Assembly: GCA_965216565.1 (NCBI GenBank)
Contig: OZ244170.1
Span: forward strand, 3,328,001 to 3,392,000
Source of the DNA: Bythopirellula sp.
GTDB lineage: Bacteria > Planctomycetota > Planctomycetia > Pirellulales > Lacipirellulaceae
Length of the DNA: 64,000 nucleotides
Reading direction: 5' to 3'
Part shown: piece by piece, positions 24,001-27,000 of the stretch
Layout: each line of letters begins with the position of its first letter
How positions within the stretch are numbered: the first letter of the stretch is position 1
Program-made: the position numbers

Positions 24001-27000
24001 GTCAGTACTACAATCGTCGATGCCAATTTGGGTATGCATTTCCATGACAGTGTCGTGCTGATCGTAGTCGCGAGTGCGTAATTCGCCGTTTTTTCCTCGA
24101 GTCACAATTCGGATTGTTTTTTCAGCGGGCATAGGTGGGTTCGCACTTGTTGGATTTTTGGGGAGGGCGGTTCAGGACATTAGCAAGCATCGGTATCTGG
24201 CGGGCAAATGTGCGAACGTTTTTTGGTGTCCGTCGCACTACCTACAGAGGGAGGAACCTGCATAGGCGGACTTCTCTGGAGCTTCCTCACAAAATCGCTC
24301 CGAAGAGGACGGCGGGGCTGGTTATGACGGTCCCACAACCCACGAGTTTGCGGGGTATGCCAATTGGCCCTGCTAGAGAGAAATGAAAGGCTAGCTGTTC
24401 TTGCCGGACTGTGCCGCGAACATTAGATTAGAGGGTGCCGAAGGAGGATACGCGAATTGGCTAGCAGCCTGACTCGAAATCAGGTGCCCCGCAAGGGGTT
24501 GAGGGTTCGAGTCCCTTGTCCTCCGCTTGAGAAGCCTCCGCAGTAGCGGAGGCTTTTTTCGTTTCAAGAGTGACGAAGTGGGGGCTATTCGCCCGCTACT
24601 TTGGCCAGGTAAAACAAATCTTGGTACCCCGGGGCTGGTTCTGTTCAATCCAGATTCTGCCCCCGTTGCTCTCGATAATTCTTTTTACGATTGCCAAGCC
24701 CATCCCACTGCCCTCCACTTCGTCTCGCGGTTGAAGTGTTTGGAACATGGTAAATGCCTTCTGATATAGCTCTGGGCTGATACCAGGACCATCATCACTA
24801 ACCCTAAAGAAAGTCATATCGCGTTGGTCGATCGTCTCGACAAGTATGTTGCCGTTCTCTTGATCGTGATGCTTGAGTGAATTGGAGACGAGGTTGCGAA
24901 TGACTGTTTCTAGCGAAATCCGATAGCCGCGTAATTGAGTGACTTCGAACTGGGTTTTGACAGAGAAACCCTCTTTCTTGTTTAACTCGGAGACATTCTC
25001 CATGACTTCGTTCAGGTCGATGATCGTTTCCTCACCCTGCGAGCGACCCGCTCGCGAATACTCAAGCAAATCGCTCAGCAACTTATCCATGCGCGCTGTG
25101 CGCGACTTCAATTGCTTGAGATGCTTAGCTGCCTCCTCGGACAACTTTCCCTTCATATCTTCTTCAATCCAGCTAGACAAATGACTAATTGCCCTCAACG
25201 GGGCCTTCAGATCATGCGAGGCCACGTAAGTGAACTCTTGCAAGTCGCGATTAACCCGTTCCAGTTCATTGGCGTGTCGCTTCAGATCCGAGATGTCGGA
25301 CCAGGTCGAAGAACTGTAGAGTATTGCCCCATTCTCATCCCTTACCGACGAGACATTCAATATCACAGGCAATTCGCTGCCATCGGAACGCTTGAGCGAT
25401 AGTTCTGCGTTCTCCACTGAGCCTGAGTCCACAAATTGTCGAAAAGCACGCTCGACATCCTTTCGACATCCTTCGTGATAGATGAAGTGAATCGATTGGC
25501 CCAGGATTTGGTCTTTAGCGTCGTAGCCGAGTCGGTCGACGAGAAGCTGATTGCAATCCTTAATGGTCGCATTCAATGGGTCGACGTGGGCATGCATTGC
25601 AGGCGACTCCTCATAGAGAGCTTTGTACTTTCGCTCACTCTCCTGAAGTTGACGAATCAGATTCTGAAGCTCTGCATTCAGTTTTTGCAGAATCTCATTG
25701 TTAAGCTTCTTATCCGTCGCGTCTCGAGCTATGGCATACATGAATGAATCGCCCGGTTGAACAGCCGGACAGGTCCACTCCAACCATCGATACTCGCCAT
25801 CCTTGGTTCTATAGCGATTCGTAAATCCACGTAGATCTTGCCCCTTCGCAATTTCGCCAAGAACTTCCCTGGTGCTCTCTCGGTCTTCGGGATGAACAAA
25901 CTCCATATAGGGTTTGCCGAGGAGTTCTTCTAAGGAATATCCCAAGACGTGCGACCATGCGGGATTGAGCTTTGTAAAATAACCGTCAAGATTCGCGACA
26001 CAGATCAGGTCGAGAGAAATTGAGAAGAACGTTTCAATTTCCGACTCAGTCCAAACCTGAGTAAATCCTGAACCCTCGCCCTGGAGGACACCTTGAGGCT
26101 TTGATGATTTCTGATTGGCAGTCATTTGAAATTAGCCCGATGCTTTTTGGCAACGCCTCGACTCGATTCTCTATTCAAAGATACGAGAATTCGTCTCGAA
26201 ATGCACTCCCAGCATCGATGAAACTAATGCTGACCCTAGAAGTGAGTGTTCAGCGATTGACTAAACCCATTGCAATCACCATGAGAGTCTGAGGGATTCC
26301 TTAATGAGATCCCACTTGGCTCAAATTGCATCAACAAGGAACTGCGGGTTAAGAGGCTTGCGGAACCATCGGTCCACGCCCCCCTCGCCAATCTCTAGAT
26401 TGTTGTCTTCTGGAGTAGAACCGCTAATCGCAAAAACACGTGTCTCATTATGCACACCATCCGAACGCAGTTGGCGGACCATTTCTCCGCCGCTACATCG
26501 TGGCATGTTCATGTCGACTAGGACCACCGAAGGATCGTTATGGCCTGCTAGGTACTCTAGTGCCTCGTCCCCGTCTCGAGCCGATACGACCGTATGGCCT
26601 TGCAATCGAAGAAAACCTGCAAGCATTTCGCGCTCGTTGTCATCGTCTTCCACGATAAGCACGGTCCCTGGTAGGTTTACCGTGCCCCCTGTGTTTGGAC
26701 TCTTTAGCACGTCGTTATCGTCAAGACGTTCGATGGCCCCCTGTATTTCACGAAAAGTATCAGTGGCTTCGTCACTAGCTCCAGCCTTCACCTGCTCTCT
26801 GAACAAATGAAGTCCGATACTAATCGCATGCAGTTCGTTCCGGATCTCGTGACGCACTTCTTTGGGTAGTAGGGACCATTGTTCCCTGAGCTTTTCTGCT
26901 GCTTCCGGATTATCGGATACCTCATCCCGAACAATGACGATGTCGCGGGGTGCGTCGATCCCGACTTTGGCCGTGCCCCCTTGGACTCGGACAAAATGAA

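What a model noticed while it worked through the whole genome (the two positions that open the first line are those of the whole stretch)
24443..24526. Serine tRNAs GGA and CGA lack the universal U8
The only tRNA-Ser(CGA) and tRNA-Ser(GGA) (2155121-2155203) have an A directly after the 7-bp acceptor stem (U7.G66) instead of the near-universal U8, and the strand from acceptor to the D-loop GG is one nucleotide short (either a one-base linker as in tRNA-Pyl/mt-tRNA-Ser(UCN), or A8 with a 2-3-bp D stem and a 6-bp anticodon stem). The UGA and GCU isoacceptors are canonical, and the GGA tRNA is the sole UCC reader, so the odd form must be working.
Evidence so far: All 48 tRNA rows compared. 88 distinct homologues from Pirellulales and neighbours all read GGAGG(G/A)-U-A, with G66 in 87 and A66 in 1; the next base varies freely. 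A Planctomycetales homologue has C7-G66 followed by A, fixing the 7-bp register. Rfam scores the CGA gene only 29.7 bits and misses the GGA gene.
(Added by a program. Inside this text positions count along the whole contig: contig position 3,328,001 is position 1 of the stretch shown here. "Call 12" and the like, gene names such as g00115 and contig names such as C1 are that model's own, and its searches are not shown. The text may have been shortened before it was handed on; [...] marks where a part breaks off. The agent that wrote the report below was given it as the finding of a first reader that could run no searches.)

Follow-up and report, generated by a model that had tools for sequence, protein, structure and literature searches.

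The report
Serine tRNAs without the universal U8
One whole order of bacteria makes its proteins with serine transfer RNAs that lack a nucleotide thought to be needed for the tRNA's fold, and the closest look-alikes sit in the tRNA clusters of phages, so a viral tRNA design seems to have replaced the ordinary genes.

Summary
Observation confirmed. The window's tRNA-Ser(CGA) and the genome's tRNA-Ser(GGA) carry one purine, not U8-N9, between acceptor and D stem. This is the housekeeping form across the order (Pirellulales by record titles). The odd GGA gene was found in 177 of 201 genomes, canonical GGA/CGA in 4 of 201, all on short contigs. In seven relatives, one a single contig, the UGA gene is odd too, so the design must read all UCN codons there. 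In one, it sits at the canonical gene's locus. The same D arm is common in phage and mobile tRNA arrays, including cultured Streptomyces phages. Covariation over 87 sequences supports a 7/5 cloverleaf: 7-66 pairs 87/87, 49-65 pairs 87/87, a 2-bp D stem, and loss of A21. An unnoticed 8/4 register (A-U65) stays possible for this order alone. Origin from the mobile pool is likely but unrooted. Charging and folding are untested. Ten literature searches found no description.

The parts
24443..24525 (+). tRNA-Ser(CGA), 83 nt, G1 to discriminator G73, CCA not encoded
24443..24449 (+). acceptor stem, 5' strand (1-7), ends in U7, which pairs G66
   Evidence: pair 7-66 formed in 87 of 87 aligned family members, six pair types
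24450..24450 (+). single purine linker (A) in place of U8-N9
   Evidence: A or G in the family; A in 155 of 155 cellular U7.G66 genes
24451..24467 (+). short D arm: N10 mostly unpaired, G11-C24, C12-G23, G13.A22, A14, A15, G18G19, no A21; G26
24468..24484 (+). anticodon arm; anticodon CGA at 24475-24477
24485..24500 (+). U44, long variable arm (5-bp stem, 4-nt loop) and U48
24501..24517 (+). T arm, opening with G49.U65
24518..24525 (+). acceptor 3' strand (G66-C72) and G73
24532..24559 (+). terminator-like hairpin (10-bp stem, 4-nt loop, T run) directly behind the gene
   Evidence: read from sequence, folds as a hairpin; not called by the consensus scan
24401..24429 (+). weak sigma-70-like promoter candidate, 8 of 12 matches, 17-nt spacer
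   Evidence: read from sequence; below the scan's threshold, so only a candidate

Best explanation
These are working housekeeping serine tRNAs of a distinct class II design: 7-bp acceptor, 5-bp T stem, one purine between acceptor and D stem, 2-bp D stem, long variable arm, G73. Shown: the anatomy, the covariation and the distribution. Inferred: the U8.A14.A21 layer of the core is gone. The L shape would be held by G18/G19 with the T loop, A15-U48, G13.A22 (probably with the linker purine, as position 9), the 26.44 wobble and possibly a linker-to-position-20 contact. The single ordinary SerRS charges them through the variable arm and G73, which are intact. Inferred, less firmly (about 0.6): the design came from the tRNA arrays of phages and mobile elements. 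It replaced the GGA and CGA genes before the order diversified, and later replaced the UGA gene at least twice.
For: Odd GGA gene in 177/201 order genomes; canonical GGA/CGA in 4/201, on contigs of 1.4-10 kb. G239 (one contig) has odd UGA, GGA and CGA and no canonical UCN gene; likewise G148, G391, G211, G233, G236, G499. These UGA genes mostly have G7-C66, and in genus g2 also G49-C65, so no U is available and no 8/4 fold is possible. Alignment A3: 7-66 87/87, 49-65 87/87, 11-24 and 12-23 87/87; linker-65 69/87, and the set of alternative pairs containing it does not beat the shuffles. A21: 34/34 and 44/44 in canonical genes, 6/155 in odd ones. One full-length SerRS in 76/76 class genomes. 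Serine identity rests on the variable arm and G73 (PMC9976931, passages). Same D arm in 116 distinct viral tRNAs; 31/40 viral loci are arrays, 85/92 cellular U7.G66 loci are stand-alone. It is also in Streptomyces phages BRock, Alone3 and Starbow. Best identity outside the D arm: 0.75 to array-borne viral genes against 0.65-0.67 to canonical genes of the same anticodon.
Against: No charging, folding or expression data. In the order's GGA/CGA genes U7, the linker A, G49, U65 and G66 never vary, so their own register cannot be read from covariation. The 7/5 fold beats 8/4 by only 0.65 kcal/mol in the model, and the unconstrained fold of the window gene pairs A with U65. The tree has 65 columns, is unrooted and weakly supported (79/84 at the split from canonical genes). 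Some viral hits are probably copies taken from hosts. The g2 UGA gene is about as close to canonical UGA (0.75) as to viral genes (0.77), which fits conversion in place as well as import. All counts rest on patterns, two of which first missed real variants.
Confidence: 0.7

Rival explanations
1. In this order the GGA/CGA genes fold 8/4: the A after U7.G66 pairs with U65, G49 is freed, and the variable base after it is the linker. They would then be a short-D-arm cousin of the (8/4) tRNA-Ser of Mukai et al.
For: A and U65 in 155/155; 10.25 paired in only 35/155. Among A-linker viral genes 10.25 pairs in 12/14 with C65 but 11/35 with U65 (kin not independent). The minimum-energy fold of the window gene has the 8-bp stem.
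Against: G49 is equally invariant. Family members with the same D arm have C65 or G65 opposite the A: Alone3, Starbow and the g2 UGA gene. Linker-65 pairs in 69/87 against 87/87 for 49-65. The (8/4) tRNA-Ser sequences that I saw in Mukai's supplement have long D stems with 3-4-nt loops.
Confidence: 0.15
2. The seventh base is really U8 and pairs with A14; the acceptor stem is 6 bp and G66 is bulged or pairs with U48 (6/6 fold).
For: U7, A14, A15 and U48 are nearly invariant in the order; one gene has C48 opposite G66.
Against: Across the family 7-66 covaries 87/87, while 7-14 is complementary in 46/87 and 48-66 in 48/87. The odd UGA genes have G7-C66. Model energy is 1.7-2.1 kcal/mol worse.
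Confidence: 0.07
3. The design arose inside the order by loss of U8, spread between isoacceptors by gene conversion or anticodon change, and was picked up by phages afterwards (or phages converged on it).
For: In G239 the odd UGA gene lies behind dnaK-clpB exactly like the canonical gene of G000. The G499 UGA gene nests among the order's CGA genes. ThiI is absent from 71/76 class genomes, so U8 is under no thiolation constraint.
Against: Viral genes are far more diverse (six 7-66 pair types, four anticodons) and occur in phages of Streptomyces. The order's genes are not closest to canonical genes of sister orders, even with the D arm left out. ThiI is also missing in orders that keep U8, and is present in two order genomes with odd genes.
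Confidence: 0.3
4. The genes are decayed or dispensable, and canonical tRNA-Ser(UGA) reads all UCN codons.
For: Low Rfam scores; U34 wobble is established in other bacteria (own knowledge).
Against: Order-wide retention with compensatory changes; genomes with no canonical UCN reader at all.
Confidence: 0.02

Closest known systems
Canonical bacterial class II tRNA-Ser
   Same: G1-C72, G2-C71, G73, long variable arm, G18G19, T loop, A15-U48, 7+5 acceptor branch, ordinary SerRS.
   Different: No U8, one linker base, no A21, D arm 2-3 nt shorter, 10.25 mostly unpaired. The U8:A14:A21 layer described for T. thermophilus tRNA-Ser (PMC3711452, passages) cannot form.
tRNA-Pyl (Desulfitobacterium hafniense has a single G linker) and mammalian mitochondrial tRNA-Ser(UCN)
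   Same: A single nucleotide between acceptor and D stem; loss of U8:A14 in D. hafniense tRNA-Pyl (PMC7609411, passages).
   Different: Those have a 3-nt variable loop, a small D loop and a true 6-bp anticodon stem, and serve a special amino acid or an organelle. This one has a long variable arm and a full D loop with GG, and decodes ordinary serine codons in free-living bacteria.
(8/4) tRNA-Ser and allo-tRNAs (Mukai et al. 2017, PMC5389517)
   Same: Serine-type class II tRNAs without U8, in phages and tRNA clusters; some lack a linker base; my viral scan also caught members of that class.
   Different: Their D stem is long with a 3-4-nt loop and their branch is 8/4 or 9/3; the paper reports them from phages and scattered bacteria. 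Its supplement holds no 'Planctomyc' or 'Pirellul' entry, and the D-loop motifs searched matched only unrelated entries.
tRNA-Sec
   Same: Best Rfam clan hit for the window (32.6 bits, under the 47-bit cut-off); long extra arm.
   Different: No 6-bp D stem (14-21 complementary in 33/87), 12-bp not 13-bp branch, Ser anticodon; the genome has its own tRNA-Sec.
Long mobile tRNA arrays (L-arrays, PMC8421152)
   Same: The array-borne relatives in planctomycete genomes lie in clusters of 10-40 tRNA genes.
   Different: The passages seen treat arrays as accessory sets and describe no such structure; here the design has become the sole stand-alone housekeeping gene.

Membership tests
canonical bacterial tRNA-Ser (class II) | long variable arm, G73, G1-C72/G2-C71 | tested here: met
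canonical bacterial tRNA-Ser (class II) | U8 and a two-base acceptor-D linker | tested here: not met
canonical bacterial tRNA-Ser (class II) | A21 for the U8:A14:A21 triple | tested here: not met
   U21 in the window; A21 in 6/155 odd against 78/78 canonical
canonical bacterial tRNA-Ser (class II) | serylated by SerRS and used on the ribosome | not testable with these tools
   inferred from genomes lacking any other UCN reader and a single SerRS
(8/4) tRNA-Ser / allo-tRNA | 8-bp acceptor and 4-bp T stem | tested here: inconclusive
   possible for the window gene (A-U65); excluded for relatives with C65/G65
(8/4) tRNA-Ser / allo-tRNA | long D stem with 3-4-nt loop | tested here: not met
   two Watson-Crick pairs and a 9-10-nt loop against the sequences
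[quoted passage not shown] | one nucleotide between acceptor and D stem | tested here: met
[quoted passage not shown] | three-nucleotide variable loop | tested here: not met
   16-nt variable region with stem
[quoted passage not shown] | 6-bp anticodon stem | tested here: inconclusive
   26.44 is G.U in 140/155 and A.C in 11/155 cellular genes, but paired in only 44/87 across the family
tRNA-Sec | 6-bp D stem with 14-21 pair, 13-bp branch, UCA anticodon | tested here: not met

The most novel reading that the evidence does not exclude
An undescribed structural class of serine tRNA (no U8, one-purine linker, rebuilt core with a linker-to-position-20 contact) circulates in phage and mobile tRNA arrays and has been domesticated as the only decoder several times: GGA and CGA in a whole order, UGA in two of its lineages, and UGA beside gyrA in a Gemmatimonadota genome. 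It spreads because the remodelled D arm escapes tRNA-Ser-cutting nucleases of defence or toxin systems.
Probability: 0.25. Interest if true: 0.88.

Novelty: new variant of a known kind. Interest (0 to 1): 0.72.

Why it matters
U8 and the U8:A14 pair are textbook constants of cytoplasmic tRNA. The exceptions in the review passages I read are special-purpose (Pyl, Sec, allo-tRNAs) or mitochondrial. Here ordinary bacteria, some with no other reader for four serine codons, depend on a tRNA without it. That gives a natural, cultivable system for asking what the tRNA core needs. It would also be a clear case of a phage-type tRNA displacing a housekeeping gene, once at the same locus. Practically, such genes score at or under the Rfam cut-off (28.9-42.6 bits) and can be dropped by annotation. 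A compact serine scaffold may also interest code-expansion work.

Tried and rejected
1. Apparent loss of the GGA gene in family f2 was a pattern artefact: A52-U62 and G37 variants were missed. Of five genomes rechecked, three show an odd-like gene and two fragmented ones show none.
2. A tRNA-Sec-like A14-U21 pair: position 21 varies freely.
3. Loss of ThiI as the cause: it is missing across the class and present in two order genomes with odd genes.
4. A dedicated second SerRS: none.
5. Synteny of the odd GGA/CGA genes with canonical genes of sister orders: no shared flank among 22 and 11 canonical loci, but only about 1.5 kb each side was held, so this is inconclusive.
6. Expression: three RNA runs hold short contigs over the tRNA of related organisms only, with foreign flanks; DNA carry-over is not excluded, so they are not used as evidence.
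7. The promoter/terminator scan found nothing at its thresholds.
8. The neighbouring 97-aa protein gave no family above cut-off, no atlas hit and no fold match (best Z 3.5; only one of five models confident), so no link to the tRNA is claimed.
9. Earlier findings of the scan: three look-ups, nothing.
10. Pope et al. 2014 was not held; Puerto-Galan and Vioque 2012 was seen only as a reference. Either may describe odd array tRNA-Ser genes.

Full report
1. Observation. Window 24443-24525 (+) is a tRNA-Ser(CGA) gene. After seven acceptor bases ending in U comes A, not U. The 3' strand begins with G66, giving U7.G66. The genome's only GGA gene has the same build; the UGA and GCU genes have the usual U8-G9. 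The gene stands alone and is followed by a terminator-like hairpin (the consensus scan did not call it). A DNA run matches the stretch without a difference (it may be the source).

2. Distribution. In a class sample of 76 genomes searched with a pattern open to both forms, 14 of 18 same-order relatives matched and all listed genes were odd. All 57 genomes of other orders matched; their listed rows read as canonical, with some extra genes. Of these and of the phylum loci I parsed 44 distinct canonical GGA/CGA genes. In 201 genomes of the order, a canonical-U8 pattern found 4 genes (3 CGA, 1 GGA), each on a contig of 1.4-10 kb, probably contamination. That pattern needed G52-C62 and A37, so variants could escape it. 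The odd GGA gene was found in 177 of 201. Of five misses rechecked, three hold an odd-like variant and two fragmented genomes show none. Record titles of a scan of named genomes, stopped at 120 stretches, are nearly all Pirellulales or unplaced planctomycetes. Among 199 phylum genomes outside the order, three matched the short-arm pattern: one real gene pair in a tRNA cluster and two non-tRNA matches.

3. The form is indispensable in some relatives. G239 is a single contig of 6.4 Mb. Its Rfam list and the fetched class II genes show odd GGA, odd CGA, odd UGA and a canonical GCU gene, and no canonical UCN reader. G148 and G211 give the same result with paired patterns. G391, G233, G236 and G499 carry odd UGA genes and no canonical one in the rows listed (one search left 50 rows unlisted). 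Most other genomes of that family keep a canonical UGA gene (63 of 71 match the canonical pattern). In G239 the odd UGA gene follows dnaK-clpB in the same orientation as the canonical gene of G000, so the replacement happened in place. For G000 itself, UCG and UCC make up about 25% and 15% of serine codons in long open frames (rough count). No CmoB was found, so wobble by UGA is neither shown nor excluded.

4. Wider family. Parsing gave 116 distinct tRNA-Ser genes with the same short D arm and one purine linker, besides true 8/4 forms. 31 of 40 viral loci of at least 3 kb hold five or more tRNAs, whereas 85 of 92 cellular U7.G66 loci hold one. Planctomycete genomes inside and outside the order also carry such genes as extras in arrays of 10-40 tRNAs. 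Cultured Streptomyces phages BRock, Alone3 and Starbow have GGA genes with a near-identical D arm, with U7-A66 or U7.G66 and with A49-U65, G49-C65 or C49-G65.

5. Structure. Alignment A3 holds 87 sequences: the window, 60 of 97 viral, 10 cellular non-U7.G66 and 16 U7.G66 genes drawn at random, after dropping genes with long variable arms. On it 7-66 is paired 87/87 with six pair types, 49-65 87/87, 11-24 and 12-23 87/87, 10-25 49/87 and 26-44 44/87; the whole fold exceeds all 500 shuffles and all slid controls. My parser and class filter demanded near-complete stems, which inflates these figures, but they do not force the covariation. The alternatives fare worse: linker-65 69/87, 14-21 33/87, 7-14 46/87, 48-66 48/87. 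So the family folds 7/5 with a one-purine linker. A21 is present in 78 of 78 canonical genes and in 6 of 155 odd ones, as expected if the U8:A14:A21 layer described for T. thermophilus tRNA-Ser (PMC3711452, passages) is lost. The linker is complementary to the D-loop base two before A22 in 70/87 (A-U and G-C). This is a candidate replacement contact, confounded by kinship, and it is mostly A.C in this order (97/155).

For the order's own GGA/CGA genes the junction never varies. Of 172 distinct cellular short-arm genes, 155 have U7.G66, and all 155 also have the A linker, G49 and U65. An 8/4 register therefore cannot be excluded for them. Model energies favour 7/5 by only 0.65 kcal/mol, and the free fold picks the 8-bp stem. 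Canonical UGA genes of the order are also well conserved at these pairs (G7-C66 32/34, G49-C65 31/34), so invariance alone says little.

6. Mechanism. One ordinary full-length SerRS is found in each of 76 class genomes. Serine identity rests mainly on the variable arm, G73 and the first acceptor pairs, and not on the anticodon (PMC9976931, passages); all are intact. I infer normal charging and decoding with a rebuilt core. ThiI, which thiolates U8, passes its cut-off in 5 of 76 class genomes and not in G000. That is a permissive background, not a cause: canonical orders lack it too, and G206 and G262 have it with odd genes.

7. Origin. With the D arm left out, the order's genes are on average 0.86-0.88 identical to their best viral match, 0.78-0.81 after equalising group size, and 0.75 counting only array-borne genes. 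The figure for canonical genes of the same anticodon is 0.65-0.67. A 65-column tree of 133 rows places them among viral genes, apart from canonical ones, with weak support and no root. It puts the G7-C66 UGA genes in a separate viral/array branch and the G499 UGA gene among the order's CGA genes. Import from the mobile pool is the simplest reading given the greater viral diversity, but export from host to phage is not excluded, and the g2 UGA gene looks partly canonical. A reason for the spread is not shown. One lead is that a type I-A retron nuclease cuts tRNA-Ser and that phage and host tRNAs differ mostly around the D loop; in that paper the T5 tRNA-Ser tested did not escape (PMC12475279, passages).

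8. Comparison with what is known. One-base linkers are known in tRNA-Pyl and mammalian mitochondrial tRNA-Ser(UCN), both with tiny variable loops (PMC7609411, passages and section 7). Mukai et al. describe 8/4 and 9/3 serine-type tRNAs with long D stems (PMC5389517: parts 2-3 of the text, first part of the supplement and two searches in it). No planctomycete entry and no member of this D-arm type turned up in those searches; I did not read all 731 rows. PMC8421152 (passages) treats long arrays without this structure. Ten full-text searches found no description; most subscription journals are not in the library, and two relevant array papers could not be read.

9. Verdict. Real, functional and apparently undescribed: a new structural variant of tRNA-Ser, fixed in one order and shared with phage arrays. 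The fold is well supported for the family and likely for the window gene; the origin and the selective reason remain inferences. Interest 0.72.

Noticed in passing
window 23839-24132 (-): A 97-aa hypothetical protein, divergent from the tRNA-Ser(CGA) gene, is 56-79% identical in all 18 other order genomes of the class sample and found in 3 of 57 others. It is often adjacent to the CGA gene. No family or fold was found.
   Followed up: partly
L561:3003-3289 (G498, Gemmatimonadota by record title): A tRNA-Ser(UGA) of the same odd type, with encoded CCA, lies right after gyrA with canonical Ser(GCU) and Gln genes, and is the only UCN gene found in this MAG: possibly an independent domestication in another phylum.
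   Followed up: partly
L474, L475, L476, L477, L439: Arrays of 18-40 tRNA genes in planctomycete genomes carry several non-U8 class II genes: Ser(GCU) with a long D arm, Ser(GGA/CGA) with C after the acceptor stem, and Tyr genes with C at that place.
   Followed up: no
L567:4315-5628 (-); L568:589-3261: The GGA gene lies behind rho, a flank shared with 24 odd GGA loci; the UGA gene lies behind dnaK-clpB (gene names from my reading of the translations).
   Followed up: partly
L622, L623; G233:C1 and C6; G267, G281, G290 rows: Partial 3' copies of the odd genes and integrase-like neighbours suggest that they serve as integration sites, so some viral hits are host copies.
   Followed up: no
G206:C1:3435143-3436542; G331:C148: tRNA-Ser(GGA) with G37 instead of A37; in G206 a second copy of at least the 3' part lies 1.3 kb away.
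   Followed up: no
contig 4989174-4989262: The second ARAGORN Ser(GCT) row has no proper T loop and no Rfam hit; probably a false call.
   Followed up: partly
L627:1657-1741: Streptomyces phage BRock has a short-arm tRNA-Ser(UGA) that its GenBank record does not annotate.
   Followed up: no
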